DNA of 64,000 nt from Candidatus Aenigmatarchaeota archaeon (GCA_016198755.1 JACQIB010000004.1:170913-234912); one strand, 5' to 3'. Shown: positions 2,586 to 51,212, counted from the stretch's first letter. A program made the numbers and translations. The notes: generated from the letters alone by a model not told the origin.

Positions 2586-3491
2586 ATGGGAATGAAACAG
2601 GTTTGGAGCGGAGCAATTGGAAGAAAGCCGGATATGGATGCTCTTGCAAAAGAAATCGGAAATCCTCCTATGTACTGTTTTGTCCCGCGCTACATGATTT
2701 CCGGAGGTATGAAAGAGCTGTTCGGAAGCTATTCTCTTACCAATCCTTTTGAAATTTCAATACCTTGGGAGTTGTTTGCTGATCTTTTAGGTGATACAGA
2801 TTACAGAATTAATAAATCTGCTTTTTCTGATCCTATAAGAAACGGTGTTAATAGAGGCAACAATTTAGTTGGGATGTATTTTGTTGAGTATGATGGACTA
2901 TTGAGGGGAAGCGTTTCTGTTGTCAGCAAAGCAGAGACCAAATGGGGATCCCATTTAATTGCACTGAGCAAGCCACATACAATACCACTGACTCCTCATG
3001 AGAAAAAACAACTGGAAAAAATTGATGGTTATAGATCACATGCCAGAACGCAACTGGAAGTTATTGGTAGTCATAAATCACGTATAAGCAGAGAAGCTTT
3101 TAATAAATTATCTGGCAATGATAAGGATGGTCTGCTCATAGCTTTATTAGCATCCACACCCTCTGGAGCTGTTATTGAGGATGTTACTCCTATAGGTAAT
3201 GTTACTGGCTATGAAGAAGCTGTTAAGGCAGCAGAGTATAACAGAGTTCCTGTATCTGATATAGGAGAAAGGTTCAAAGAACTGGAAGCAGAGCTTGCAG
3301 AATTAAAAACCGCTTACAAAACAGACTTTCCAGATGTTGTTATGTTCAACGGTACTCTTCCAGAAAGATTAAAGGGCACTATTCCAAGCGAGTTTGGAAC
3401 AAGGAGAGAAAGGATTTTGGCCAGATTAGGTTCTGAAGCATTTATCAGAGAACTTCGCAGTCAGAAGCTTGCTGCCCCAGTACTTTTATAA
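2586..3491 (+). CDS. Hypothetical protein (301 aa), no recognisable motif
   Basis: Long ORF with an ATG start. A TATA-like tttaaataaa lies about 40 nt upstream. Confidence 0.45.
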   Translation: MGMKQVWSGAIGRKPDMDALAKEIGNPPMYCFVPRYMISGGMKELFGSYSLTNPFEISIPWELFADLLGDTDYRINKSAFSDPIRNGVNRGNNLVGMYFVEYDGLLRGSVSVVSKAETKWGSHLIALSKPHTIPLTPHEKKQLEKIDGYRSHARTQLEVIGSHKSRISREAFNKLSGNDKDGLLIALLASTPSGAVIEDVTPIGNVTGYEEAVKAAEYNRVPVSDIGERFKELEAELAELKTAYKTDFPDVVMFNGTLPERLKGTIPSEFGTRRERILARLGSEAFIRELRSQKLAAPVLL

Positions 3492-3518
3492 GCTTTCCAT
3501 ACACAAACTACAGCTTAT

Positions 3519-3604
3519 GCCCGGGTAGCTCAGCAGGAAGAGCGACTGGCTGTTAAATTGCGGAAACCAGTAGGTCGCAGGTTCGAGTCCTGCCTCGGGC
3601 GCCA
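3519..3604 (+). tRNA. tRNA-Asn(GTT) candidate with an insertion of about 10 nt (mini-intron) in the anticodon arm
   Basis: The sequence parses as acceptor GCCCGGG/CTCGGGC; D-arm GCTC-AGCAGGAA-GAGC; anticodon stem ACTGG/CCAGT enclosing 17 nt (CTGTTA A ATTGCGGAAA); T-arm GCAGG-TTCGAGT-CCTGC; G73 and an encoded CCA. If the intron sits at the canonical 37/38 site, the anticodon loop is CTGTTAA (GTT). Confidence 0.65.
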
Positions 3605-3605
3605 A

Positions 3606-4505
3606 TTATTCGTTTACGATAGCTCTATTTACCACGTTTAACCTGTCTGGATGGTTTCTTACTAAAGCTTTGCTGTAGGGATCTGAAACCCATATTATTG
3701 CAGTTCTGTCAGGAACATTTTCTATAGGGTAAAATTCCGGAGGTGCAAACCCTAACAATTCCAGTTGAGCGCTCATAGCTGTTTCAATCTCTCCTATATT
3801 ATAGTTGTCAGGATCCTTATCAAAGAACGGCTCACATATTTTCCTTGCACCTTTATATCCCTTATCGCCCATTTTTTTCCATCTCTCTGGCACTGTTTCT
3901 AAGAGTTCTGCACAAAGCCTGCTCTTGTCAGGCAGCCACCTATCAAAGGCAGCTTCGAGGACCCCTAACTTCATAAGTTCCTCAGCAACACTAAGATCTA
4001 TAACTTCTGTTCCAAACAAATCACTTACAGCTTTAACATCTTCTTTTTCACAAACCATCCTATAATGGGCGTCACTGCTTCTATTGAATGCAGTTAATTG
4101 AAGTTGAGCTGCGTTGTAAATGTCCAATAAGTCTTGCTCCCTTAATTCTACTCCGCCACTAATTCTGGGGTGCATCCTCCACAGATAGGCGTGTGATATA
4201 TTATCCTGTATACCTGTATTTAGCTGTACAAGCGCTTTTTGAAAGCTATCTTTAACATTATCTGTGAGTCCGCTGGGATTTTTGAAAGTGCATGGAACAA
4301 ACCAGGGAAACCCATTTTCTGCCATGTTTATGTGCAAATATTCATGGGAAATATTAGCTGATGTAGGGTTGTTTGTATAAATTACCCAATATCCCTGTTC
4401 GTATCTTGTATGTGTTTCTGAAACGCCCAAAGGATTTGCAGGCTTCCTTCTAATTTGTATATTTCCCCTAATGCCCAGTTCTTCTTTCCAGTTTACAGCT
4501 GTCAT
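3606..4505 (-). CDS. Putative zinc metallopeptidase (HExxH motif HEYLH), 299 aa
   Basis: Long ORF. A single HExxH (SHEYLHINM) lies near residue 55. No other family signature was recognised by eye. Confidence 0.45.
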   Translation of the reverse strand: MTAVNWKEELGIRGNIQIRRKPANPLGVSETHTRYEQGYWVIYTNNPTSANISHEYLHINMAENGFPWFVPCTFKNPSGLTDNVKDSFQKALVQLNTGIQDNISHAYLWRMHPRISGGVELREQDLLDIYNAAQLQLTAFNRSSDAHYRMVCEKEDVKAVSDLFGTEVIDLSVAEELMKLGVLEAAFDRWLPDKSRLCAELLETVPERWKKMGDKGYKGARKICEPFFDKDPDNYNIGEIETAMSAQLELLGFAPPEFYPIENVPDRTAIIWVSDPYSKALVRNHPDRLNVVNRAIVNE

Positions 4506-4595
4506 TTGGAAGACTAAACCACAAATCTTTAAATATGCACTGTTGTGTCGCAGGTACCATAAACATTAAATAGTCTGTTTTCCAGAGTTCTTAGC

Positions 4596-5279
4596 ATGGA
4601 TTCTGTAATATCCCTTGAGAACGTTGGAAAAGTTTACAGGAATGGAGGGGTTGATACGCCGGCACTTAGCAGTATAAACCTGAAAATAGGGAAGGGGGAT
4701 TTTGCTTCAATAATGGGTCCTTCTGGTTCAGGCAAATCTACATTATTGCACATTATAGGAGCATTAGACAAGCCAAGTTCGGGAAAAGTTATTATTGACG
4801 GGAAAGAAGTTTCAAAGTTAAAAGAGCCGGAAATAGCAAAACTGAGGGGGGAAAAGATAGGTTTTGTTTTTCAGTTTTTCAACCTTTACCCTACTTTAAC
4901 AGCCTTAGAGAACGTGGAACTGCCAATGGTTATAGCAGGAAAGGAAAAAAAAGAGAGAGTTAAACGAGCCAAGGAACTGTTGGAAATGGTTGGGTTAAAA
5001 GAAAAGGCAAACAGCTTCCCTTCCCAGCTTTCAGGCGGACAGAAACAGAGAGTTGCGATAGCAAGGGCGCTTGCAAATAATCCATTATTTGTGCTGGCTG
5101 ATGAACCAACTGGAAACCTTGACTCTAAAAGCGGAAAGGATATAATAGATATACTGGAAAATCTGAACAAGAAAGAAGGAAAAACTGTTGTGATTATAAC
5201 CCATGACCAGTCAATAGCTTCACATTCGAAACATATAATAAGGATAGAAGACGGAAGAATAGTGGGTGGTGCAAAATGA
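4596..5279 (+). CDS. ABC transporter ATP-binding protein (MacB/LolD-like)
   Basis: Walker [10 protein letters not shown]; ABC signature [15 protein letters not shown]; Walker [14 protein letters not shown]; H-loop ITHD. Confidence 0.9.
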
Positions 5280-6508
5280 CTGTATTAAAATCAATTATAA
5301 TTGCAATGTCAATAGTTTTAATTTTCTCTTCAGCTGCTATTGCAGCTGCACCTGTAGTCCAAATAACTCTTGTAACAAATCCAATAACAGCTTATCCGGG
5401 CGGAGACGGCTATATACAGGTAAACCTGAAAAACACTGGCACAGCTTCTGCACTAAATATTAAAGCAACAGTTACACCTCTTGATACAGGAATTGTTACA
5501 GACCAAACACCAATTAATATAGGAGGTTTAGCTGTAGGGGACAGTATTTCACAAACATTCAAGTTTTCAGTTCCTTCAACAACACCAGCAGGCCTTTACA
5601 GGATCCATATTGAAATAAGATATTGTCAGGATACTGGCTGCAGCGATACAGACCAGTATGCAATAATAAATGTGCAGTCGCAGCAAATATTGGAGCTGAC
5701 TTCTATAACTCCAAATATAGTTAGCATTGGAAGAAATACAACAACTAAATTCAGCGTTTATAACAGTGGTCAGACTGATATCAGCAACGTTGTTCTTACA
5801 TGGCAGGAACAGAACAATCTTATTCTCCCCCTAGGTTCTAGCAACAGGATAGTTCTTCCTATAATACATGCAAACCAGACATTTGAAATACCCATAGAAA
5901 TGGTTACAAGCCCAAGCATTACACCAGGAGCTTATGCACTGAACATAAAAATGGAGTATACAGACAAGAGCGGAATAAAACAAAATATCAGTTCAATTGC
6001 AGGGGTTATTGTTGGGGGAGCAGGTGATATTGATATTTCAATGCAGGAGTTTTCTGGCAGCACAATAACACTTTCAATAGCAAATATAGGCGTTAACCCA
6101 ACAACTTCGGTTTCTATAACTACCCAAGACCAGAAAGATTTTAGGATACTGGGTGCACAGACTGTTTTCCTTAGCAACATGAACCCTGGTGATTCAACGG
6201 TTGCAACTTTTAATGTTGTTCCTCTTGCAAACATAAGCCAAGGAAGTGGGGCAAATCAGGGAGGTAGAACAGGAGGGTTTAGAGAAGGTGCACAGACATT
6301 GCATGTGACACTCTCATATACAGACACATCAGGCTTCAGGCAGAGTGCAGAGAAAGATGTTAAAATAACAGCAGGTGCAGCAGTTTCAACGGGGCAAACA
6401 CAGAGGTTTGGAAGACAGGATAATACAGTATATTATTTTGTTGCAATATTGGTTGCTGTAGTTGTTATTGTTTATGCTTACGTAAGGTTTAGAAGGAAAA
6501 AGGAGTGA
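5276..6508 (+). CDS. Secreted accessory protein of the ABC exporter, with an N-terminal signal/anchor, Ig/CARDB-like beta-rich repeats and a C-terminal TM helix
   Basis: Its start overlaps the upstream stop (ATGA) and its stop overlaps the downstream start, which suggests translational coupling in one operon. N-terminal hydrophobic segment; C-terminal [22 protein letters not shown] anchor. Confidence 0.5.
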
Positions 6509-7779
6509 GCTATCCTATGCGGATAGAAGATATATTTAGGATGTCTTTGAACACAATTCTAAGCAGAAAACTAAGAAGCGGACTGACAATACTCGGAATT
6601 GTAATGGGTGTTGCAGCTGTTATAGCTCTTGTTTCTATTGGGCAGGGGTTGCAGGAGAGTGTTAACCAGCAGCTAAGCTCTCTGGGCGGAAACCTTGTAT
6701 TGATAACCCCAGGAAGTGAACGTGCAACACAGGGGTTTGGCTTTGCTGGTGGGTTTGGAGGGCAGAATTCAAAAACGCTTACTGATTCTGATTTGAGGAT
6801 AATAAAAATAATCCCTGGTATTTTGTATGCAACAGGGGTTGTTTCCGGATCTGTCTCACTCGAATATAACAGCCAGAAATCCGAATCAAGAGCACAGGGA
6901 GTTGAACCTGGTGTATGGGAACTTGTGCAGTCTGTTGACCTTGAATCCGGCAGGTTTCTTTCAAAGAGCGATCCAAATGGTGTTGTTATAGGCAACAGGG
7001 TTGCACACAGCCTTTTTAAAAAGGAAGTTGGAATAAACAGCCAGATAAAGATAAATAACAAAATTTTTCATGTTGTTGGTATATTGAAATCTACTGGAGG
7101 TTTTATTGGCGGTTCGGGAGATAACAGCGTAATAATATCCAAAACCAGCGCAGATGACATAAATCTTGTAAGTTCAGGGGAAAAGGACAGCTATTCTACA
7201 ATATATGTAAAAACCACAGAAGGTTCTGATACAGAGACAGTTTCAGGCTATATACAAGACAGGCTTAGGTCAAATCATCATGTTTCAGAGCAAAACCAAG
7301 ACTTTACAATTAACACTTCCAAAACAATACAGGCGCGCGTTGGTACGATAATAGGCACGATAACTCTTTTTCTTGGAGGTATAGCTGCAATTTCTCTGTT
7401 TGTTGGTGGGGTTGGGATAGCAAACACAATGTTCACATCAGTAATGGAAAGGACAAAGGAAATAGGCGTTCTTAAGTCCCTTGGAATGGCTAATTCTGAT
7501 ATTCTAAGGATGATACTTGTAGAGTCAGCTCTGTTAGGCCTTATGGGCGGTGCAATAGGAGTATTCTTCGGCACTCTTGCTTCTTCTATTATTTCCAGTA
7601 TAGGTGGTATTTCTCCTGCTGCAGGTCCGCTTGCAGGAAGGGCTGTAGGAACCTATGTATCTCTGGAAATGGTTTTGTTCGCTCTTTTATTTTCTGTTTG
7701 CGTGGGCGCTGTTTCAGGCTTGTTCCCAGCAAGGCGTGCAGCAAACTTACAGCCAGTTGAAGCTTTGAGATACGAGTAG
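6505..7779 (+). CDS. ABC transporter permease, FtsX/MacB family (periplasmic MacB-type domain plus 4 TM helices)
   Basis: N-terminal TM; large extracytoplasmic domain; C-terminal FtsX-like TM bundle (ITLFLGGIAAISLFVGGVGIANTMFTSVMERTKEIGVLKSLG). Confidence 0.85.
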   Translation: MSYPMRIEDIFRMSLNTILSRKLRSGLTILGIVMGVAAVIALVSIGQGLQESVNQQLSSLGGNLVLITPGSERATQGFGFAGGFGGQNSKTLTDSDLRIIKIIPGILYATGVVSGSVSLEYNSQKSESRAQGVEPGVWELVQSVDLESGRFLSKSDPNGVVIGNRVAHSLFKKEVGINSQIKINNKIFHVVGILKSTGGFIGGSGDNSVIISKTSADDINLVSSGEKDSYSTIYVKTTEGSDTETVSGYIQDRLRSNHHVSEQNQDFTINTSKTIQARVGTIIGTITLFLGGIAAISLFVGGVGIANTMFTSVMERTKEIGVLKSLGMANSDILRMILVESALLGLMGGAIGVFFGTLASSIISSIGGISPAAGPLAGRAVGTYVSLEMVLFALLFSVCVGAVSGLFPARRAANLQPVEALRYE

Positions 7780-7817
7780 GAGTATATACAACAAGCAAGT
7801 TTATATACTACCTAATA

Positions 7818-8156
7818 GTGATAATATATATGCATGAACTCTCTGGAACAGCTAATGGGATAGATGTTTTAAAAGCTGCAATTGATAGCGTTGGCGGGAA
7901 AAGTCAATATTTGGGAAAAGGCAATACTGGTTTCGGTTCCTCTATTTTACATTCTGGGGAGAAAACAACTTCCGTAGTTTGGAATATGAACGGCGGACAA
8001 TACAAAATCCGCGTTGAGGGTCCGCAGGAAGGGGAAGTATCAGGATCAATACAGCAAGCTTTGGAAGGCGCTGGAACAGTCTCTTCTTTAAAACCAAGAG
8101 AAATGAACGGACCTTATCTAGTAAACGAGCGCGGAACTCCATTGCTAGAGAGTTGA
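7818..8156 (+). CDS. Small hypothetical protein (112 aa)
   Basis: ORF only; Gly/Ser-rich; no motif. Confidence 0.3.
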   Translation: MIIYMHELSGTANGIDVLKAAIDSVGGKSQYLGKGNTGFGSSILHSGEKTTSVVWNMNGGQYKIRVEGPQEGEVSGSIQQALEGAGTVSSLKPREMNGPYLVNERGTPLLES

Positions 8157-8166
8157 AATATAAAAT

Positions 8167-9183
8167 TTACAATAGACCTTTTGGAAAGAAATTCAAGGTA
8201 AATTCTTCTGTTGTAATCATTGGTTCAATATCCGTTAAAACTCTGAAAAACTTGTTTTTAATATCTCTTACAAGAGCTTCAGCATTTTCCTGTTTATCTG
8301 TAGCATACCAGAAATATATTTCAGGCCTTCCAATAACTTTGAATGCCAGATGTATGTCATGTGTACTTTTGATATAATTTACAATTTCTGCTTCTATTTT
8401 CTTTGTCATATAACGAAAGTTCATTTGTACAAAATACTGTATAAGGCCTAATTTTTTATGGACAACAAAAGGGAAAAAAGTTCTGATAATACCATCATGT
8501 ACAAGCCTTCTGAAATGGTTTCTTGCTGTTTCCATTGAGCTTCCAGAAGCTTTCCCAAGCTCCTGATAGTTTGCTAGCCCATCCACAGTATTTAGATGGT
8601 GAAGAATCTTTTTGTCTATATCATCCAAAATATATATATTTTCTGTTGGAATCTCTTTATGTATTTTTTTATATGATTTTTTCCTTGTAAAAATCTGATG
8701 ATCGAGTTTTATATTTTCCATTAAAGTTTTCGAATCATAAGATTCCAAACTATCTCCAAGAAAAGTTAATACATCATCCAGTATATTTTCAAATTCTGCG
8801 GGTTTTTTAACAAGAAACTGCACAAATAGATCCCATCTGCCGAATATGCTTCCTGCCCAGACAACATTGGGGTGGTTTTTGAAGTACTCTTTTATTTCTT
8901 TTTCTCTTTCAGCAGAAGCTCTAAGTTTAATAAAAACATGATATTGATAAATATCTAATTTCTTATATTCAACAGGAGCGAAAAATTTCCATATAATTCC
9001 CCTTTCCTTGAGTTTTCGTATCCTATATAGTATGGCATTCTTGCTTAAACCGACTTCTTTTGCCATTATTCCGAGAGGAGTCCTTGAATTTTCAAGCAAA
9101 ACAGCTAAAAGCTGCTTATCCTTCTGATCAATATTATATATCATATATGGTATATTATTAAACTGTATATTTAAATCTTTCAT
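8167..9183 (-). CDS. Tandem Lrp/AsnC-family transcriptional regulator (two HTH-AsnC + RAM units)
   Basis: Two repeats of DxxDxxILxxLxxNxRxxxxELAxxVGLS...TPGxxD-like architecture (MIYNIDQKDKQLLAVLLENSRTPLGIMAKEVGLSKNAILYRIRKL and ILDDIDKKILHHLNTVDGLANYQELGKASGSSMETARNHFRRL). Confidence 0.8.
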   Translation of the reverse strand: MKDLNIQFNNIPYMIYNIDQKDKQLLAVLLENSRTPLGIMAKEVGLSKNAILYRIRKLKERGIIWKFFAPVEYKKLDIYQYHVFIKLRASAEREKEIKEYFKNHPNVVWAGSIFGRWDLFVQFLVKKPAEFENILDDVLTFLGDSLESYDSKTLMENIKLDHQIFTRKKSYKKIHKEIPTENIYILDDIDKKILHHLNTVDGLANYQELGKASGSSMETARNHFRRLVHDGIIRTFFPFVVHKKLGLIQYFVQMNFRYMTKKIEAEIVNYIKSTHDIHLAFKVIGRPEIYFWYATDKQENAEALVRDIKNKFFRVLTDIEPMITTEEFTLNFFPKGLL

Positions 9184-24875: not shown

Positions 24876-25005
24876 TGGTGGACTCGGTGGGATTTTCTCC
24901 AAACCCTTTTGGGGTTTGCAAAGACCTTTTCGGAAAAGGGATTTGCTTTGAACCCACAACCTCTTGCTTGCAAAGCAAGCGATCTTCCAGTTGATCTACG
25001 AGCCC
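24876..25005 (-). tRNA. tRNA-Ala(TGC) with a roughly 54-nt intron in the T-loop (non-canonical position about 59/60); CCA encoded
   Basis: The minus strand reads GGGCTCG TA GATC AACTGGAA GATC G CTTGC TTTGCAA GCAAG AGGTT GTGGG TTCAAA[G-intron-T] CCCAC CGAGTCC A CCA. The exons assemble into a perfect 76-nt cloverleaf. Confidence 0.8.
24904..24953. repeat. 50-nt sequence identical to 52268-52317 (core of the T-loop intron shared by tRNA-Ala and tRNA-Leu)
   Basis: Exact match: cccttttggggtttgcaaagaccttttcggaaaagggatttgctttgaac. Confidence 0.9.
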
Positions 25006-29499: not shown

Positions 29500-29912
29500 G
29501 TCGGTTGTTAGGAATTTTTGGAAATAGCTAAAGCTAAGCTGTAAAAATAGGTCGCGGCCGATGATATTAGCGCCCCGAATAAAAAATTTTGGAGGTGATC
29601 CAGCCCCACGTTCCCGTAGGGCTACCTTCTCATAGGAGTGCAGCCTGGCAAAATTATCCCTCTCAATTCACCTCAGTCCCCACTTGGGGCCCGCCTTTCT
29701 TTCTTTCATAGAGGAAAAATACAGACTACACTTCCTGTCTGTCAGTATTGCAGCTTTCACTGCAAAACATATGACTTAGCCTTTCTTGTAAGTCTCTGGC
29801 TCGACTCTTCCCATACCCATTGCTGGAAACGAAAAAAGCCTCGCCAAAGGCTCACTCAAATGGCTTGACAGGCGGTGTGTGCAAAGAACAGGGACGTATT
29901 CGGCGAACGAAT

Positions 29913-30701
29913 TCATGCTAGAAGCTTCGAAAAAGGTTTTATAATATTAATCAACTTATACACTGATTGATTAACAAGAACATCATTATATTCTTCCTTT
30001 ACAATATCTATAGCATCTTTTTGTATATTGCCTTCTAATATTGCTATCAATCTTACATAGGGATATTTTTGTCGAATTTTCATAGCTCTATAAGCAAGTT
30101 CTACGGCTTGCAAACGTTTCCTATAATTGAAATTCATTTGCTTTACCTCAATTATTATTTTGGGTATATTTTCAGAAGGCAAGGCAAAATCTACTACAAA
30201 ATTTCTATTGGTCCTCACTAGGGCATGAAACTTATGTGAAATGCCCAATTTCTGAAAGATTTCTATATATCTTTTTTCTTGTTCTGTAGGACCTTTTATT
30301 ATTGCACCTTTCAGAGATCTTTCTTTAGACGCCTTTAAACTCATTTTTCTTGCGCGTTCAGTATCTCTAAAAGTGCCGCGTTCGGAAATTTCATAATACC
30401 TGCGTATTAAGATTTCCCTAGAAGGAATTCTTTGCATGCATTTAATTTCTTCAAACACTTTGTTTATTACTTTTTCGTCTACACTTTTTCTAAATCCTTT
30501 CTCTATATTATAGACTGTGCCTTGACTCTTCCCTATAAACTTTGCTAATTGCCACTGACTCATATTCAATATTAAACGTAGAATCAGCAATCTCTGCGGT
30601 TTTGTATATATAATTTCAGGTTTCAGTTTCCTTAAACTGTCTGTTGTTCTATATACTTCATCACAGAGATTTTTTAATTTTAGCTTGTTTATGGTAATCA
30701 C
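29913..30701 (-). CDS. Intron-encoded putative homing endonuclease: N-terminal XRE-type HTH plus C-terminal PD-(D/E)XK nuclease-like domain (262 aa)
   Basis: HTH MSQWQLAKFIGKSQGTVYNIEKG; nuclease motif FVVDFALP...IIIEVKQ (D...E-x-K). Sits entirely inside the rRNA intron, with the stop overlapping the exon junction. Confidence 0.55.
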   Translation of the reverse strand: MITINKLKLKNLCDEVYRTTDSLRKLKPEIIYTKPQRLLILRLILNMSQWQLAKFIGKSQGTVYNIEKGFRKSVDEKVINKVFEEIKCMQRIPSREILIRRYYEISERGTFRDTERARKMSLKASKERSLKGAIIKGPTEQEKRYIEIFQKLGISHKFHALVRTNRNFVVDFALPSENIPKIIIEVKQMNFNYRKRLQAVELAYRAMKIRQKYPYVRLIAILEGNIQKDAIDIVKEEYNDVLVNQSVYKLINIIKPFSKLLA

Positions 30702-30757
30702 CGATATTATATTATATCGGTAACTACTATTTAACCCTTTACAGAGCTTCTAACTTT
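29916..30757 (-). mobile_element. 16S rRNA intron (about 840 nt) in the 3' domain, carrying an HTH + PD-(D/E)XK ORF
   Basis: Exon sequence ...GGCGAACGTCAT is interrupted and resumes ...GAATTCGTTCGCCGAATACGTCCCTG (the equivalent of E. coli position about 1360-1380). Confidence 0.7.
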
Positions 30758-31059
30758 ATGACGTTCGCCTACTATGAATTCCGGCTTCATGTGGGCGAGT
30801 TGCAGCCCACAATCTGGACTAAGATTGGGTTTAGGGGGTTAGCTTTGCCTTTCGGCATTGCATCCCATTGTCCCAACCATTGTAGGACGCGTGTAGCCCA
30901 GAGAATTCGGGCCGTACGGACCTACCGTCGCCCACTCCTTCCTCTGCTTTAGCAGCAGCGGTCCCGCCATTGTGCTCTCTCCCCGGAGGGAAAGGTGGCA
31001 AATGGCAGCGTGGGTCTCGCTCGTTAACGGACTTAACCGCACGCCTCAAGGTACGAGCT

Positions 31060-31219
31060 TTCTCGTCTTAGCAGCCCTCATACAAAACATTATCTTACTT
31101 TTCTCTATGTTTTACATAATTAGCATTCCACCAACGTCGTATCAGTATTAAGTTTGAATACTGGTTGCATATCGTTGTTGAAATTTTTCAATATCCCAAT
31201 TAAATTGAGACTGCCAAGA
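31060..31219 (-). other. Insertion of about 155 nt (ORF-less intron, likely BHB-type) in the 16S near the E. coli 1050-1070 region
   Basis: The conserved CATGGCCGTCGTCAGCTCGTACC is split: ...catggccatcgtca | 150 nt AT-rich | agctcgtaccttgagg. Flanking cttggcag/ctgctaag can pair to close the insert. Confidence 0.6.
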
Positions 31220-31763
31220 TGACGATGGCCATGCAACTCCTCTCAGCTTGTCTGGTAAACCCGTTAGGCTGACCCTCATTCTGCTGTCTTCTCTGGTAAG
31301 ATGTCCGGTGTTAAATCCAATTGAACCGCATCCTCCACTCATTGTGTGTTCCCCCGCCAATTCCTTTAAGTTTCAGCCTTGCGGCCGTACTCCCCAGGTG
31401 GCCCGCTTAACATCTACACTTCGGCACTGCATGTTCACGTAGAACGTGCAACACCAAGCGGGCATCGTTTACGGCTGGGACTACTGGGGTATCTAATCCC
31501 AATCGCTCCCCCAGCTGTCGCCCCTCACTGTCAGACTCGTTTTCGGTAGACGCCTTCGCCACAGGTGGTCCTCCACGGATTAAAGGATTTAACCCCTACA
31601 CGTGGAATACCTCTACCGTCTCCCGATCTCAAGGCTTGGAGTATCTCCAGCGCGCCTGACAGTTAGCTGCCAGATTTCACCAGAGACTTTCAAGCCCAGC
31701 TACGGGCGCTTTAGACCCAATAAACGCGATAGCCATTTGGACCGCGGGTATTACCGCGGCGGC

Positions 31764-31795
31764 GTGTGCGAACAAAGTCTACTGACTTTGAACAT
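31764..31795 (-). other. Hairpin insertion of about 30 nt inside the universal 515F/530-loop sequence of the 16S
   Basis: GTGCCA | tgttcaaagtc-agtag-gactttgttcgcaca | CGCCGCCGCGGTAATAC. The insert forms a 7-bp perfect stem, caaagtc/gactttg. Confidence 0.6.
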
Positions 31796-32249
31796 GGCAC
31801 CCGTCTTACCCAGTCCTTATTCGCCTAGGTTTTTAGCCTAAGCAAAAGCTCGTGCAAAGCACGAGCACTCGAGGTTCCCTTCTCACACGCTAATGCATTG
31901 GAAAGTTTTCGCTCCTGCTGCGACCCGTAGGCCCTGCGCTCATGTCTCAGAGCGCATCTGGAGGCTCACACTCTCATGTCCCCTACCCGTCACAGGCTTG
32001 TCAGTTTTATAAAGCAGGTAGCTTATGCTACCAAAAATTATTTTGGCAAACTAAGTTTGCCTATGCACTTTACACTGACAACAACCTGATAGGCCGCAGT
32101 CCCATTCTATGGCGCCGGAGCTTTCACTTTTGGTGCATTCCAGCATCCAAAAACTATGGGGCATTAGCCTCACTTTTGCGTTCACTTTCAAAAGAAAGTG
32201 GAATTCGCAAGATTATTCCCCACCATAGAGTAGGTTAACTACGTGTTAC

Positions 32250-32921
32250 TCAGCAGTGCGCCGAGGGCAAGAGCGGATTAAATAGAACCTTACCAGTCTT
32301 TTTACAATAAAAATAGTTTTTAAATTCCTTAGAAAGACATCTTACTTTTTCTAACTTTAGTGGATGTTTAAATTTTATTATTCTACAAAACTTTCTAAAA
32401 TTTTTAGCACCTTTTATTCGCCACCAATATACATCGTTTTTTCCATAAACTTTTGATACATGAATACCATATGTTTCTAATAATTCTTTACTCCATATGC
32501 AAAAATCCTTAGATTTAATTTGTAGTTCTATTACAGGATATTCATATATAGACATCATGGTCTTTCTCTTATACCTTTGGACTTCTTTGAATACGGAACA
32601 ATCACCATCAAAAAATCCTATAAGAAAATTCATCTTTTCTTTTCTATTTATGTGCACTGGTGGAGTGATGTCATGAGACTTTTTCCCTGGTTTTATATGA
32701 TAAAGTCTCTTAAATTTTTCGTATAGCTTACGATCACTTACCCTTATCTGAAATACTCTTTTTCTTAATTTGTAAGTAACCTTGTTTTTTGCAAATTTTT
32801 GAAGATTTTTTACTATATCATCTCTGAAGCGCTTGTTATTTGTGTAGACATAGACATACGGTCTATATTTTTCTAAATGACCATCTGCAGCTATTAAACC
32901 GGCCATATAAGAAAATTTCAT
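32250..32921 (-). CDS. LAGLIDADG-family homing endonuclease (double-motif, intron-encoded)
   Basis: Two LAGLIDADG motifs are present: MAGLIAADGHL and LIGFFDGDCSV. Confidence 0.85.
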   Translation of the reverse strand: MKFSYMAGLIAADGHLEKYRPYVYVYTNNKRFRDDIVKNLQKFAKNKVTYKLRKRVFQIRVSDRKLYEKFKRLYHIKPGKKSHDITPPVHINRKEKMNFLIGFFDGDCSVFKEVQRYKRKTMMSIYEYPVIELQIKSKDFCIWSKELLETYGIHVSKVYGKNDVYWWRIKGAKNFRKFCRIIKFKHPLKLEKVRCLSKEFKNYFYCKKTGKVLFNPLLPSAHC

Positions 32922-32992
32922 ATATTATTCTATGACGATATACAACTTATAGATTTCTATGTTTCGTTAGTAGTGTTCTACTTAATCCTTTA
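32277..32992 (-). mobile_element. 16S rRNA intron (about 715 nt) near the 5' end (after ...CATGCGAGCCGAGAGGGG), carrying a LAGLIDADG endonuclease ORF
   Basis: Exon resumes ...CCGCTCTTGCCCTCGGCGCACTGCTGAGTAACACGT. The ORF reads through the 3' junction to a TGA stop inside the exon. Confidence 0.75.
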
Positions 32993-33474
32993 CCCCTCTC
33001 GGCTCGCATGGATAAATCGAACCCCGATAACGGCTATCTCCGGCAGGATCAACCGGAATTAAATTAGGGGGGATTTCACAAACCTAATGGTTTGCGTTCC
33101 CTGTTTTCTTACTCGGAGTTTCGCTAACATCAGCCACGACTTCTAATCATGAACTCATCCGCACCCGCGCGCGCTTCCAAATTTCCCTCGCACTGGTCCG
33201 CTCATTGCTGCGTAAGCAGCTCGTTTGTATTTTTTCCCACAGGTTGGAACTGGGATGCTCATAGCGAGTTTACACTCTTGCTTGCAGCCCACACAGAAAG
33301 AGATGGAACAGCAGCGCCGTACCATTCATTTTGCCTGTGAGTACAGACTATAATAGCGTTATCGAAGGCTTTTAAAGGTTACTGCGGATGCCGTTGGCTG
33401 GGGTTTAAAAGGTTTTCTTACGACCACTTTCTTATGGCAACCTCAAAACCACAGCCACAATACATGTTTTTGCC

Positions 33475-50144: not shown

Positions 50145-50213
50145 CAAAAGATATCCATGGAAGTTATAACTATAATACTTTGGTTTTTATACTTAATGCA
50201 TAAAGCTTCTCTT

Positions 50214-51212
50214 ATGATTGAAATTGATGGAAATGATGCTGGAGGGCAGCTTGTCAGAACCGCTGTTTCTCTGAGCGCCATAACAGGAAAGGCTTTTAGG
50301 ATTGTTAACATACGCGGGGCGCGACCCCAGCCTGGACTGAAAGCACAGCATATGGAAGGTATTGGAACTGTGGCAGAACTCTGTTCTGCAAAAGTTTCGG
50401 GGTTGGAGTTAGGCTCAAAAGAGCTGGAATTTATTCCTGGAAAGCTGGAACCAAAAAATTTGGAGGTTAAAATCTCTACAGCAGGTTCAATTGGATTAGT
50501 TTTGCAGTCTCTGTTAATTGATGCAACAAAGTTTGAAAAGCCTATTAATGTTAAGTTTTCAGGCGGTGGAACATGGGGAAAGTGGGCCCCACCCATGCTT
50601 TATCTGGAAAAGGTTTTTCTGCCCTGCTTATGTTCAGGTTTAAAAACAAAAGTTAAGAGAGAAGGTTTCTATCCTCGTGGTGGGGCAGAAGTAGAGGTTG
50701 AAATAACTCCAATTAAAGTAAAATCTATAGAGATTCTGGAGCATGGAAAGCTGCTGGAACTGAATATTTTCTCTGTTGCTGCCCAATTGGAAGGGAAAAA
50801 AGTAGCTGAGAGGCAGGCTGAGGCTGCGCGCAGTTTCCTAGAGGAGAGGATTGGGGTAAAGGTTTCTGTGAAAACAACCTATTCTGCAGCAGAAAATCCT
50901 GGCTCTGGTATTTTGATTGTTGGGAAGTGTGAAAATTCAGTGATTGGAGCTGACTCTATTGGAGAGCTAAATGTTCCAGCAGAGGAGGTTGGAAAGAGAG
51001 CTGGAAAGGATTTTTTTAATGAGTTTGCAAACGGGGCTGTAGACAGGCACTGCGCTGACATGCTTTTGCCCTATATTGCTCTGGCTGGAAAGGGAAGAAT
51101 AAAAACATCAGAGATAACCCAGCATATTGTTACCAGCATAGAACTAATAGAAAAGTTTCTGCCTGTAAAGTTTTCGATAGACAGGGAAAAGAAGATTATT
51201 TCTGTGCTATGA
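50214..51212 (+). CDS. rtcA: RNA 3'-terminal phosphate cyclase
   Basis: N-terminus MIEIDGNDAGGQLVRTAVSLSAITGKAFRI is the typical RtcA start. The conserved His-containing adenylylation region is consistent with RtcA (...GSGILIVGKCENSVIGADSIGE...DRHCADML). Confidence 0.8.
   Translation: MIEIDGNDAGGQLVRTAVSLSAITGKAFRIVNIRGARPQPGLKAQHMEGIGTVAELCSAKVSGLELGSKELEFIPGKLEPKNLEVKISTAGSIGLVLQSLLIDATKFEKPINVKFSGGGTWGKWAPPMLYLEKVFLPCLCSGLKTKVKREGFYPRGGAEVEVEITPIKVKSIEILEHGKLLELNIFSVAAQLEGKKVAERQAEAARSFLEERIGVKVSVKTTYSAAENPGSGILIVGKCENSVIGADSIGELNVPAEEVGKRAGKDFFNEFANGAVDRHCADMLLPYIALAGKGRIKTSEITQHIVTSIELIEKFLPVKFSIDREKKIISVL

What the first reader, a model, noticed from the sequence alone, without database searches (positions are those of the whole stretch)
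29591..33059. Hyper-interrupted, unlinked 16S rRNA gene carrying two different homing-endonuclease genes
Conserved 16S blocks occur in the correct order on the minus strand, but the gene spans about 3.47 kb instead of about 1.5 kb. I can place at least five insertions. There are two ORF-bearing introns, one of about 715 nt with a LAGLIDADG ORF near the 5' end and one of about 840 nt with an HTH/PD-(D/E)XK ORF in the 3' domain. There are also inserts of about 155 nt near position 1060, about 30 nt in the 530 loop, and about 135 nt near the 3' end (helix 44/45). No 23S follows within about 3.5 kb on either side, so the rRNA genes are unlinked. This is the condition described for intron-rich Thermoproteales and several DPANN lineages. 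It makes the organism hard to recover with standard SSU primers.
Basis: partly seen in the sequence, partly recalled or inferred. Interest (0 to 1): 0.75.

Follow-up and report, generated by a model that had tools for sequence, protein, structure and literature searches.

The report
Eight-intron 16S gene in a DPANN archaeon
The single 16S ribosomal RNA gene of this tiny uncultured archaeon (Aenigmarchaeota) is split by eight protein-spliced (bulge-helix-bulge) introns, two of which carry genes for DNA-cutting "homing" enzymes, one of them of a type not previously described for archaeal introns.

Summary
An archaeal 16S rRNA gene lies on the minus strand at exactly 33059..29591 (3469 nt). No 23S or 5S gene occurs anywhere in the 64 kb window. 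I count eight insertions at seven sites (E. coli 81, 161, 265, 520, 1066, 1363, 1499, 1501), totalling 1987 nt. Removing them leaves a 1482-nt RNA colinear with intron-less relatives.

[quoted passage not shown] It is strict for the two ORF-bearing introns and relaxed for the six small ones. The motifs at 1363 and 1501 show strong compensatory covariation across 14-15 relatives. The 3'-terminal insert is best read as two introns, 31 and 108 nt, separated by a 2-nt micro-exon.

ORF 1 is a double-motif LAGLIDADG enzyme related to I-Tsp061I. ORF 2 combines an Xre-type HTH with a PD-(D/E)XK nuclease. Its close homologues all sit at the same 16S position in other DPANN genomes, so it is probably a non-LAGLIDADG homing endonuclease.

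Relatives in metagenomes carry up to 7 or more such insertions each, spread over about 45 positions, so this is a lineage trait. Splicing itself is inferred; there is no RNA evidence. Verdict: new variant of a known kind.

The parts
29591..33059 (-). Complete interrupted 16S rRNA gene (3469 nt; predicted mature RNA 1482 nt)
   Evidence: Rfam RF01959 at 1035 bits. Canonical 5' and 3' termini read directly. Exon table.
32269..32989 (-). Intron I1, 721 nt, in the apical loop of helix 6 (after E. coli ~81). Strict hBHBh' junction: cgagag GGGU AA|A ggauua ... uaaucc GCUC UU|G cccucg
   Evidence: BHB scan. The spliced product is exactly colinear with the intron-less relative L012. GC is 28% against 54% in the exons.
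32250..32921 (-). LAGLIDADG homing endonuclease ORF (223 aa, two motifs). Its last 19 nt run past the 3' splice site into exon 2.
   Evidence: Pfam LAGLIDADG_3 at 1.8e-14. PDB 2dch (I-Tsp061I) at 1.6e-18. NCBI names it a LAGLIDADG family homing endonuclease.
32175..32203 (-). Intron I2, 29 nt hairpin mini-intron in the h8 tetraloop (after 161). Central helix UGCG/CGCA; the outer helix is weak.
   Evidence: Splicing gives AUCUUGCGAA|AGUGAGG, identical to L012. L037 has a 428-nt BHB intron in the same register.
32007..32067 (-). Intron I3, 61 nt, in the h11 loop (after 265). Central helix GUAA/UUAU and a 6-bp outer helix; the inner helix is irregular.
   Evidence: The spliced length equals L012 and the Rfam consensus. 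No relative carries it.
31764..31794 (-). Intron I4, 31 nt, inside the 530 loop between A520 and G521. Central helix GUGC/GCAC and a 7-bp hairpin.
   Evidence: Removal restores GGTGCCA|GCCGCCGCGGTAA exactly.
31060..31220 (-). Intron I5, 161 nt, after 1066. BHB junction: auggcc AUCG UC|A ucuugg ... cuaaga CGAG AA|A gcucgu (3 of 4 central pairs).
   Evidence: Relatives L022, L025, L046 and L071 have canonical AUCG/CGAU introns of 226-742 nt at the same site.
29911..30755 (-). Intron I6, 845 nt, in the h43 loop (after 1363). Perfect hBHBh' junction: cgaacg UCAU AA|A guuaga ... ucuagc AUGA AU|U cguucg
   Evidence: Across 15 sequences 93.8% of cells pair and 11 of 16 pairs carry compensatory changes, with 0 of 500 shuffles as good.
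29913..30701 (-). ORF of 262 aa: Xre-type HTH plus a C-terminal PD-(D/E)XK-like nuclease (E142, D171, E185-x-K187). Putative homing endonuclease. Its TGA stop lies in the BHB central helix.
29739..29769 (-). Intron I7a, 31 nt hairpin mini-intron after 1499. Central helix GUCA/UGAC; inner helix 8 of 9 bp.
   Evidence: Its removal recreates the GUCAUAAC sequence that 20 of the 21 relatives with an intron at this site keep.
29737..29738 (-). 2-nt micro-exon AC (E. coli A1500, C1501) between I7a and I7b
   Evidence: Inferred from comparison with relatives and from the two BHBs.
29629..29736 (-). Intron I7b, 108 nt, after 1501. Central helix CAUA/UAUG, which can form only after I7a has been removed.
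   Evidence: It is homologous to introns in 20 relatives. The inner helix covaries at all 6 pairs and the H pair A-U changes to G-C together with exon nucleotide 1497.
33105..33140 (-). 5' strand of the pre-16S processing stem
   Evidence: RNAduplex/cofold with the 3' flank. Coordinates.
29551..29586 (-). 3' strand of the pre-16S processing stem. Two 3-nt bulges on opposite strands, 6 bp apart.

Best explanation
This is the functional, unlinked 16S rRNA gene of a DPANN archaeon (Aenigmarchaeota). It is interrupted by eight archaeal bulge-helix-bulge introns.

Proposed mechanism (inferred, not shown): the pre-rRNA is transcribed through all the introns. The tRNA-splicing endonuclease (EndA) cuts two nucleotides 3' of the 4-bp central helix on each strand of each BHB. 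An RtcB-type ligase then joins the exons, giving a 1482-nt mature RNA and free, probably circular, introns.

At the 3' end, the 31-nt intron I7a must be removed first. Only then can the neighbouring 108-nt intron I7b form its own BHB, because the two central helices overlap and the exon between them is just 2 nt.

The two large introns are mobile elements. I1 encodes a monomeric double-motif LAGLIDADG homing endonuclease. I6 encodes an HTH plus PD-(D/E)XK nuclease that most likely cuts the intron-less rDNA site at position 1363 and so drives homing. The six small introns are ORF-less derivatives or hairpin mini-introns that persist because they still splice.
For: **Shown**
- Gene limits and the absence of 23S/5S in the window.
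- Every insertion has a BHB register whose predicted cleavage gives a product colinear with intron-less relatives and with the Rfam consensus.
- That register restores the universally conserved GTGCCAGCCGCCGCGGTAA, GTCAGCTCGT, the h43 hairpin and GTCATAACAAGGTAGCC.
- A fixed random register in this gene shows 4/4 central pairs plus at least 9/12 flanking pairs in only 49 of 200,000 trials.
- BHB covariation at 1363: 93.8% of cells paired, 11 of 16 pairs compensatory, 0 of 500 shuffles as good, slid controls 31-46%.
- BHB covariation at 1501: 84.4% paired, inner helix 6 of 6 pairs compensatory.
- Exons are 54% GC and introns 28-47%.
- No group I or II model matches.
- In 80 related metagenome loci, 60 of 115 non-redundant insertions pass a strict BHB test, against 12 of 635 random controls.
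- LAGLIDADG identity.
- Nuclease fold and motif of ORF 2.
- ORF 2 homologues of 36-55% identity sit at the same site in loci labelled Micrarchaeota and Nanoarchaeota (L010-L012) and in other unnamed or unlabelled contigs. ORF-less 34-52-nt introns occupy that site in other relatives.
- A more distant family member lies in an intron at site 908.
- The same genome has tRNA introns, including one in a T-loop.

**Inferred**: actual cleavage and ligation, the order of I7a and I7b removal, and endonuclease activity and homing.
Against: - There is no RNA evidence of splicing.
- Six of the eight BHBs are relaxed. I5 has 3 of 4 central pairs. I2, I7a and I7b have weak outer helices. I3 has an irregular inner helix.
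- Relaxed BHBs need a broad-specificity EndA, which I could not look for outside the window. Neither EndA nor RtcB was among the 20 window ORFs I scanned.
- I1, I2 and I3 sit in peripheral hairpin loops, where retained expansions would be structurally tolerable.
- I1, I3, I4 and I7a have no counterpart in the 80 relatives, so their junctions rest on one sequence.
- BHB registers in relatives were chosen as the best within a few nucleotides, which inflates pairing somewhat.
- The Lys of the ExK motif is not conserved in the most distant ORF 2 relatives.
- One distant relative of ORF 2 is free-standing among housekeeping genes.
Confidence: 0.8

Rival explanations
1. Some or all of the small inserts, especially I1-I3 in the apical loops of h6, h8 and h11, are not spliced and religated. 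They either stay in the ribosome as expansion segments or are excised without ligation, giving a fragmented 16S rRNA.
For: I1, I2, I3 and I6 all lie in hairpin loops, where fragmentation or expansion is structurally tolerable. The BHBs of I2 and I3 are relaxed. Sakai et al. 2022 (PMC8784108) say it is uncertain whether the 16S insertion of a cultivated Micrarchaeote is spliced out.
Against: I4 (530 loop), I5 (1066) and I7a/I7b (1499/1501) interrupt universally conserved functional strands. Every junction has a BHB in the exact register that restores the consensus. L037 has a 428-nt BHB intron in the same register as I2. The BHBs at 1363 and 1501 covary.
Confidence: 0.12
2. The 3' insert is one 139-nt intron (29767..29629), cut through the CAUA/UAUG helix directly. 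The mature rRNA would then read GUCAUAUG|AAGG, with U1500 and G1501 in place of the universal A and C.
For: A BHB with 4/4 central pairs and 5/7 outer pairs exists in the unspliced sequence, and its product has the canonical length.
Against: Its inner helix is almost absent (1 of 7 pairs). 20 of the 21 relatives with an intron here keep AC at 1500-1501. The extra 31 nt have a BHB of their own (GUCA/UGAC plus an 8/9-bp hairpin). Removing them recreates GUCAUAAC|AGGAAGUG, which is the relatives' junction.
Confidence: 0.2
3. The HTH-nuclease ORF in I6 is not a homing endonuclease. It could be an inactive remnant, a regulator or maturase-like RNA or DNA binder, or a domesticated host nuclease that happens to be lodged in the intron.
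For: No activity data exist. Pfam recognises only the HTH domain. PDB sequence searches find only HTH proteins. The AF2 model has moderate confidence, pLDDT 73.7. Distant relatives include a free-standing 400-aa gene, and some lack the motif Lys.
Against: E142, D171, E185 and K187 are invariant in the five aligned homologues P0001-P0005, which are as little as 36% identical. The top fold matches are type II restriction enzymes, and I-Bth0305I matches at 23% identity. The ORF is intact in most copies. It appears sporadically at one rDNA site in loci given different phylum labels, alongside ORF-less introns at that same site. This is the usual homing endonuclease gain-and-loss pattern. A paralogue lies in an intron at site 908.
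Confidence: 0.25
4. The insertions are self-splicing group I or group II introns, as in CPR bacteria and some DPANN 23S genes.
For: Group I introns do occur in DPANN rRNA genes, including one at SSU/1498 in a Micrarchaeote (PMC6125680). L096 has a group I match in its LSU.
Against: No Intron_gpI or group II match appears in the window at the gathering threshold. None appears at E<=1 in the subregions that hold I1, I5, I6 and I7a/I7b. Six of the inserts are 29-161 nt, too short for a ribozyme core. BHB motifs are present at all junctions.
Confidence: 0.02
5. The locus is a pseudogene or an assembly artefact.
For: The gene is highly unusual, and nucleotide 1404 departs from the universal consensus.
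Against: Five independent assemblies are identical over I5-I7. The exons score 1035 bits and are 54% GC. U1404 is compensated by A1497 and is shared with relatives. Both ORFs are intact. The gene is flanked by a processing stem.
Confidence: 0.02

Closest known systems
16S rRNA BHB introns of Thermoproteales/Desulfurococcales (Jay & Inskeep 2015, PMC4496867; I-Tsp061I, PDB 2dch; the Pog.S1213/Pog.S1205 pair)
   Same: BHB junctions, LAGLIDADG ORFs, short hairpin mini-introns and ORF-less remnants, interruption of universal primer sites, and closely spaced intron pairs. ORF 1 is a sequence homologue of I-Tsp061I.
   Different: The phylum is different: mesophilic DPANN rather than hyperthermophilic Crenarchaeota. 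None of the eight sites (81, 161, 265, 520, 1066, 1363, 1499, 1501) is among the 13 catalogued loci (374...1391). Three sites lie in hairpin loops of variable regions, which that study found intron-free. There are eight introns in one gene. One ORF is not LAGLIDADG. Two introns are only 2 nt apart.
16S insertion at E. coli 1093 with a hypothetical ORF in Micrarchaeota (ARMAN-2, ARM-1; Sakai et al. 2022, PMC8784108)
   Same: A DPANN 16S gene interrupted by an ORF-bearing insertion of unknown function. The Micrarchaeota-labelled loci L010 and L011 carry both a ~1095-1100 insertion and the 1363 HTH-nuclease intron.
   Different: That work describes a single insertion at a different site, with the ORF unassigned and splicing left open. 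Here there are eight insertions, BHB junctions are defined, and the second ORF is assigned to a nuclease fold.
PD-(D/E)XK and EDxHD homing endonucleases of bacterial or phage group I introns (I-Ssp6803I; I-Bth0305I, PDB 3r3p)
   Different: The host element is an archaeal protein-spliced BHB intron, not a ribozyme. The protein has an N-terminal Xre-type HTH. Its motif is E...D...ExK, not EDxHD. No sequence-level relationship is detectable.
Insertion sequences in rRNA genes of CPR bacteria (Brown et al. 2015; Tsurumaki et al. 2024, PMC11270868)
   Same: Ultra-small symbionts whose rRNA genes are heavily interrupted, often with LAGLIDADG ORFs, and which escape universal primers.
   Different: Those are bacterial insertions that often resemble group I or II introns. 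Here the junctions are archaeal BHBs and no ribozyme model matches.
Multi-intron, non-canonical-position tRNA genes of Thermoproteales and ARMAN, processed by broad-specificity EndA ((alpha-beta)2 or epsilon2; PMC3239211, PMC5829648)
   Same: Relaxed BHB motifs, several introns per gene, and introns at non-canonical positions. This window has a tRNA-Cys with a T-loop intron.
   Different: The substrate here is rRNA. The EndA type of this genome is unknown.

Membership tests
Archaeal bulge-helix-bulge (BHB) intron | Two 3-nt bulges on opposite strands separated by a 4-bp helix at the exon-intron junctions, flanked by helices (hBHBh', or the relaxed HBh'/hBH forms) | tested here: met
   I1 and I6 are strict (A 5-6/6, H 4/4, B 6/6). 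I2, I3, I4, I7a and I7b have 4/4 central pairs with one weak flanking helix. I5 has 3/4 central pairs, and its relatives at the same site have 4/4.
Archaeal bulge-helix-bulge (BHB) intron | Cleavage two nucleotides 3' of the central helix on both strands yields a colinear, functional host RNA | tested here: met
   The predicted products match intron-less L012 at I1-I5 and match the relatives' exons at I6 and I7. The total is 1482 nt against a 1478-position model.
Archaeal bulge-helix-bulge (BHB) intron | The structure is conserved through compensatory changes | tested here: met
   Site 1363: 11 of 16 pairs compensatory, 0 of 500 shuffles as good. Site 1501: inner helix 6 of 6 pairs compensatory. 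This could not be tested for I1, I3, I4 or I7a, which have no homologues.
Archaeal bulge-helix-bulge (BHB) intron | Excision by the splicing endonuclease EndA and ligation by RtcB, producing a spliced RNA and a circular intron | not testable with these tools
   No RNA data are available. EndA and RtcB were not among the 20 window ORFs scanned. An RtcA cyclase gene is present at 50157..51212.
LAGLIDADG homing endonuclease | LAGLIDADG domain above the curated threshold, with two motifs carrying acidic residues | tested here: met
   PF14528 at 54.2 bits against a cut-off of 22.5. PDB 2dch at 1.6e-18 over residues 3-194. The motifs GLIAADG and GFFDGDC can be read in the translation.
LAGLIDADG homing endonuclease | Cleaves the intron-less target site | not testable with these tools
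   This needs an enzyme assay. No other copy of an intron at site 81 was found.
PD-(D/E)XK (restriction-endonuclease-like) nuclease | An alpha-beta-beta-beta-alpha-beta core with a conserved E...D...(D/E)xK | tested here: met
EDxHD homing endonucleases (I-Bth0305I type) | The E-D-x-H-D catalytic motif | tested here: not met
Homing endonuclease (as a functional class) for ORF 2 | Encoded inside a mobile intron, found sporadically at one conserved target site in divergent hosts, with ORF-less derivatives at the same site | tested here: met
   ORF-bearing copies at 1363 occur in the window, L006-L012 and L096, at 36-55% identity. ORF-less 34-52-nt introns occupy the same site in L021, L023, L024, L027, L046, L082 and L086. 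Many relatives lack any intron there.
Homing endonuclease (as a functional class) for ORF 2 | Site-specific cleavage of the intron-less allele | not testable with these tools
   This needs a biochemical assay.
Group I / group II self-splicing introns | A match to the ribozyme covariance models | tested here: not met
   No Intron_gpI or group II hit in the window at the gathering threshold. None at E<=1 in the subregions that hold I1, I5, I6 and I7a/I7b.

The most novel reading that the evidence does not exclude
The HTH plus PD-(D/E)XK proteins encoded at 16S position 1363, with a paralogue at position 908, are a previously unrecognised family of archaeal homing endonucleases. They would be the first non-LAGLIDADG homing enzymes carried by protein-spliced BHB introns. 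In addition, the 3' end of this 16S is matured by obligatorily ordered splicing of two BHB introns around a 2-nt micro-exon in the decoding centre, an rRNA 'twintron-like' arrangement. Together with roughly 45 insertion positions seen in relatives, this would make Aenigmarchaeota and their relatives the richest known reservoir of archaeal rRNA introns.
Probability: 0.5. Interest if true: 0.7.

Novelty: new variant of a known kind. Interest (0 to 1): 0.58.

Why it matters
- **Primer blindness.** Introns in the 515F/530-loop site, near position 1066 and in the 1492R site, plus a 3.5-kb gene length, make this lineage invisible or mis-sized in standard 16S surveys. Automated annotation also truncates the gene: Rfam reports only 32314..30689.
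- **Wider known range of archaeal rRNA introns.** The literature I could search records 16S insertions only for Crenarchaeota, Aigarchaeota and Micrarchaeota, at 13 loci. This gene adds eight new sites, including loops of variable regions and the decoding centre. The survey of relatives suggests dozens more.
- **A testable new homing-endonuclease family.** It has a compact HTH plus PD-(D/E)XK architecture and a defined rDNA target, which is of interest for mobile-element biology and possibly for enzyme engineering.
- **A natural substrate for EndA studies.** The 2-nt micro-exon and the overlapping BHBs can be used to study the order and specificity of EndA cleavage in a genome-reduced symbiont.

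Tried and rejected
- **Unconstrained BHB scan of the whole gene.** It gave 1634 chance hits and was useless. I replaced it with scans restricted to the insertion boundaries and checked them against relatives.
- **Rfam's global alignment at the gene ends.** It forces model positions 1-60 and 1300-1478 onto intron sequence. I rejected it after reading the true termini.
- **First reading of the 3' insert as an h44 expansion or a 160-nt intron inside h44.** I rejected it once GGCUAAGUC was recognised as the true 3' strand of h44.
- **First I5 register (UCGU/ACGA, 159 nt, leaving two extra A).** I rejected it in favour of the register shared with relatives, which gives the canonical GUCAGCUCGU.
- **cmscan's placement of the I5 insert 6 nt downstream.** I rejected it because GCUCGU, not UCUUGG, pairs with ACGAGC.
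- **Searches that added nothing.** The word-indexed protein search with the LAGLIDADG ORF found only the ORF itself. The protein-pattern scan of metagenome contigs with the HTH family found nothing. Sequence searches of Pfam and PDB for the nuclease domain found only the HTH.
- **EndA and RtcB.** I looked for them among 20 window ORFs and found neither.
- **L097, a distant homologue.** It shows no rRNA match in its short flanks.

Full report

A scan of the whole window against Rfam gives one archaeal SSU rRNA match on the minus strand (1035 bits), two tRNA matches, and no LSU or 5S rRNA. The reported span, 32314..30689, is misleading. At both ends the model is forced onto unrelated sequence.

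Reading the strand directly shows the canonical archaeal 5' end ATTCCGGTTGATCCTGCCGGAG starting at 33059. The 3' end GGCTGGATCACCTCC finishes at 29591.

Five contigs assembled independently from five sequencing runs are 100% identical to 31379..29599 or to parts of it. Assembly error is therefore excluded for the 3' half.

NCBI's names for the two ORF products place the contig (242,759 nt) in 'Candidatus Aenigmarchaeota archaeon'.

**2. How many insertions, and where?**

The covariance-model alignment shows unaligned blocks at the following places:

| Place | Size of block |
|---|---|
| Tip of h8 | 30 nt |
| h11 loop | 62 nt |
| Inside GUGCCA...GGUAAUAC | 39 nt against 8 in the consensus |
| Near GUCAGCUCGU | 168 nt against 6 in the consensus |
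| Two ORF-bearing blocks | they detach the terminal exons |

I aligned the spliced sequence to E. coli rrsH and compared it with a close relative that lacks most of these inserts. That relative is L012, a MAG labelled Nanoarchaeota whose 16S is about 80-86% identical to this one. The resulting table is:

| Intron | Window coordinates | Length | Position (E. coli numbering) |
|---|---|---|---|
| I1 | 32989..32269 | 721 nt | h6 loop, after ~81 |
| I2 | 32203..32175 | 29 nt | h8 loop, after 161 |
| I3 | 32067..32007 | 61 nt | h11 loop, after 265 |
| I4 | 31794..31764 | 31 nt | 530 loop, after 520 |
| I5 | 31220..31060 | 161 nt | after 1066 |
| I6 | 30755..29911 | 845 nt | h43 loop, after 1363 |
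| I7a | 29769..29739 | 31 nt | after 1499 |
| I7b | 29736..29629 | 108 nt | after 1501 |

The exons sum to 1482 nt, against a model length of 1478, and are 54% GC. The introns are 28-47% GC and the window as a whole is 40%.

**3. Are they BHB introns?**

I used the standard geometry. The outer helix A is followed by a 4-bp helix H, then a 3-nt bulge cut after its second nucleotide, then the inner helix B. The mirror image lies on the 3' side.

An unconstrained scan is meaningless: it gave 1634 hits. Scans restricted to the insertion boundaries single out one register per site:

- **I6** is perfect: cgaacg UCAU AA|A guuaga ... ucuagc AUGA AU|U cguucg. It recreates the h43 hairpin with loop UCAUAAU (consensus UCAACAU).
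- **I1** is strict, with A 5/6, H 4/4 and B 6/6. Its product, CCGAGAGGG-GUAA-GCCCUCGGC, has exactly the length of L012's GCGAGAGGU-GAAA-GACCUCGCC.
- **I4** has H GUGC/GCAC around a 7-bp hairpin and restores GGUGCCA|GCCGCCGCGGUAA.
- **I2** has H UGCG/CGCA. Its product, AUCUUGCGAA|AGUGAGG, is letter for letter L012's sequence. L037 has a 428-nt intron in the same register.
- **I3** has H GUAA/UUAU and a 6-bp outer helix. It restores the consensus loop length, but its inner helix is irregular.
- **I5** at first seemed to use UCGU/ACGA, which would leave two extra A residues. Four relatives carry 226-742-nt introns at this site with a canonical AUCG/CGAU helix, cut to give CGUC|AGCUCGU. In that register the window has AUCG/CGAG (3 of 4 pairs), a 6-bp inner helix, and the canonical product.

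A fixed random register in this gene reaches H 4/4 with A+B at least 9/12 in 49 of 200,000 trials.

**4. The 3' end**

I first took the extra sequence for an h44 expansion. However, GGCUAAGUC at 29781 is the genuine 3' strand of h44, and the whole of h44 upstream is normal. The insert lies in GUC-GUAAC-AAGGUAGCC.

Twenty of the 21 relatives with an intron here have ...GUC(A/G)UAAC|A... ...UA(U/C)G NN|AAGGUAGCC. That is a BHB with H CAUA/UAUG, cut after C1501.

The window reads GUCAUA-UGUUUUGCAGUGAAAGCUGCAAUACUGACAG-AC-AGGAAGUG... The 31 extra nucleotides have a BHB of their own: H GUCA/UGAC at 4/4 pairs, and inner hairpin GUUUUGCAG/CUGCAAUAC at 8/9. Deleting them recreates the relatives' junction exactly.

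The two central helices overlap by two nucleotides (CA), so they cannot form together. I7a therefore has to be removed before I7b's 5' bulge exists, and the exon between them is just AC (A1500, C1501).

The alternative is one 139-nt intron giving UG at 1500-1501. It keeps the right length but changes two universally conserved decoding-centre nucleotides and has almost no inner helix. I give it about 20%.

A loose precedent for closely spaced introns is the Pog.S1205/S1213 pair, which lies 8 nt apart (PMC4496867).

**5. Comparative test of the structures**

For site 1363 I assembled the two junction halves from 15 sequences: the window, L006-L008, L010-L012, L021, L023, L024, L027, L046, L082, L086 and L096.

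- 93.8% of cells pair.
- 11 of 16 pairs show changes on both sides.
- No shuffle out of 500 does as well.
- Sliding the partner by 1-3 columns drops pairing to 31-46%.

For site 1501, with 14 sequences, 84.4% of cells pair and all six inner-helix pairs covary. The H pair that involves exon nucleotide 1497 switches from A-U to G-C together with the intron.

One caveat applies. In relatives I chose the best register within a few nucleotides, subject to colinearity, and this favours pairing somewhat.

Neither the window scan at gathering threshold nor the E<=1 scans of the subregions holding I1, I5, I6 and I7a/I7b gives a group I or group II intron match.

**6. The ORFs**

*ORF 1* (32921..32250, 223 aa) matches Pfam LAGLIDADG_3 at 1.8e-14. 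Over residues 3-194 it matches the solved 16S-intron enzyme I-Tsp061I (2dch) at 1.6e-18. It has two motifs, GLIAADG and GFFDGDC. It is very divergent: a word-indexed search of 5.8 billion clusters found only the ORF itself. tblastn finds relatives of 25-34% identity in introns at other 16S sites in related contigs.

*ORF 2* (30701..29913, 262 aa) has the following properties:

- **Domain search.** Only an Xre-type HTH is recognisable in Pfam.
- **Conserved residues.** Four homologues of 36-55% identity share invariant T139-x-Q141-E142, FVVDF (D171) and E185-x-K187.
- **Model.** The AlphaFold model (pLDDT 73.7) shows a helical HTH domain, a disordered linker, and an alpha-beta-beta-beta-alpha-beta-alpha-beta domain.
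- **Foldseek.** It gives PspGI at E 1.3e-4, then AF1548, R.BspD6I, SfsA, Ecl18kI, MUS81 and EndoMS, which are all PD-(D/E)XK enzymes.
- **Family size.** A full profile search finds 288 clusters at E<=1e-3. Many have the same ~250-290-aa architecture, and some have two to four HTH repeats.
- **Genomic context.** Every close homologue whose DNA I could read sits in an SSU rRNA gene at the same h43 position. A 27.6%-identical member (L066) occupies an 830-nt intron at site 908. A 23%-identical 400-aa member is free-standing.

At 1363, other relatives carry ORF-less introns of 34-52 nt. That presence/absence pattern, together with the conserved catalytic residues, is what a homing endonuclease would leave. 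Activity is not shown. The EDxHD motif of the I-Bth0305I family is absent.

**7. Is this gene exceptional within its lineage?**

A 20-nt signature just 3' of I5 retrieved 80 metagenome loci with 73-85% identical 16S genes. A long-gap pairwise alignment found the following:

- 127 insertions of at least 25 nt at about 45 positions. These include known crenarchaeal loci (722, 781, 908, 1093-1102, 1205) and many others.
- 60 of 115 non-redundant insertions pass a strict BHB test, against 12 of 635 random controls.
- 23 of 27 full-length genes are interrupted, by up to 7 insertions.
- Partial genes such as L092 show 11.

Heavy interruption is therefore a trait of the clade. This gene is at the top of the range. 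Sites 81, 265, 520 and 1499 were seen only here.

**8. Comparison with the literature**

- Jay & Inskeep (PMC4496867) list 13 loci for Thermoproteales and Desulfurococcales. They found only LAGLIDADG ORFs and reported variable regions to be intron-free.
- Nawrocki et al. (PMC6125680) found group I introns coexisting with BHB introns in DPANN rRNA genes, mostly in the LSU.
- Sakai et al. (PMC8784108) state that 16S insertions had been reported only in Crenarchaeota, Aigarchaeota and Micrarchaeota. They leave open whether theirs is spliced.
- He et al. (PMC7906910) mention intron-containing 16S genes of CPR/DPANN organisms only as a primer problem.

I found no description of an Aenigmarchaeota multi-intron 16S gene, of these sites, or of an HTH-PD-(D/E)XK ORF in an archaeal intron. 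The library does not hold most subscription-journal papers, so this absence is weak evidence.

**9. Verdict**

The mechanism (EndA/RtcB splicing of BHB introns and homing by intron-encoded nucleases) is a known kind. The new elements are the phylum, the number and positions of the introns, the two adjacent introns around a 2-nt exon, and the non-LAGLIDADG nuclease family. All statements about actual splicing and cleavage are inferences that RNA reads and enzyme assays could settle quickly.

Noticed in passing
window 24876..25005 (-): A tRNA-Cys(GCA) gene with an encoded CCA and a ~54-nt intron inside the T-loop. Splicing gives GUGGGUUCAAA|UCCCAC; the BHB has 3 of 4 central pairs. ARAGORN missed it, and Rfam matched only model positions 8-63 at 30.9 bits.
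   Followed up: partly
window 3519..3604 (+): ARAGORN labels this tRNA Leu(TAA). However, it has a short variable loop and a 17-nt anticodon loop reading CU-GUU-A. It therefore looks like tRNA-Asn(GUU) with a ~10-nt intron at or near the canonical 37/38 position.
   Followed up: partly
window 33105..33140 and 29551..29586 (-): The flanks of the 16S gene form a ~33-bp processing stem. It has two 3-nt bulges (AAA and UAU) on opposite strands, separated by 6 bp rather than the canonical 4 bp. This is a BHB-like pre-rRNA processing site with unusual spacing.
   Followed up: partly
window 30697..30724 (-): A conserved hairpin (GUUACCGAUAU...AUAUCGGUGAU) lies just upstream of the HTH-nuclease ORF and overlaps its GTG start codon. 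L006, L010 and L012 have a hairpin at the same place with different stem sequences; L008 may as well, though I only read the sequence. It may be a translational control element or a structural element of the intron.
   Followed up: no
window 32250..32268 and 29911..29915 (-): The LAGLIDADG ORF reads 19 nt past the predicted 3' splice site and stops in exon 2. Its C-terminus would therefore differ if it were translated from the excised intron. The TGA stop of the HTH-nuclease ORF forms part of the BHB central helix of I6.
   Followed up: no
window 50157..51212 (+): An RNA 3'-terminal phosphate cyclase (RtcA) gene, Pfam RTC at 2e-66. It belongs to an RNA end-healing and ligation pathway. No EndA or RtcB was seen among the 20 ORFs scanned.
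   Followed up: no
window 29868..29875 and 29770..29775 (-); L010, L012: The decoding-centre pair C1404-G1497 is replaced by U-A in this gene and in L012. L010 changes 1404-1407 and 1494-1497 together (UACC/GGUA). L012 also has U at position 1400.
   Followed up: no
L013-L092 (metagenome relatives): About 45 distinct insertion positions occur in related 16S genes. Several partial or full genes carry 7-11 insertions, for example L092, L090, L085 and L022. Sites 793 (~50 nt) and 1499-1501 are the most frequent.
   Followed up: partly
L007 ~1000..1318; L034 and L045 at site ~1498: L007 has a further insertion directly after ACACACCG, around position 1401. L034 and L045 carry a ~755-nt insertion at 1498/1499 that does not fit the 1501 BHB register. 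It could be like the SSU/1498 group I intron reported for a Micrarchaeote.
   Followed up: no
L096 (GCA_964493685.1) 2637..8741: In this genome the SSU and LSU genes are linked. The SSU carries the HTH-nuclease intron plus a LAGLIDADG_1 intron. The LSU has a near-threshold group I intron match (48.6 bits against a cut-off of 50). BHB and group I introns therefore occur in one operon.
   Followed up: no
L012 5001..5760: The HTH-nuclease ORF in this relative appears to be truncated or frameshifted: the match ends at residue 229, and its stop codon is no longer in the BHB. This may be a decaying copy.
   Followed up: no
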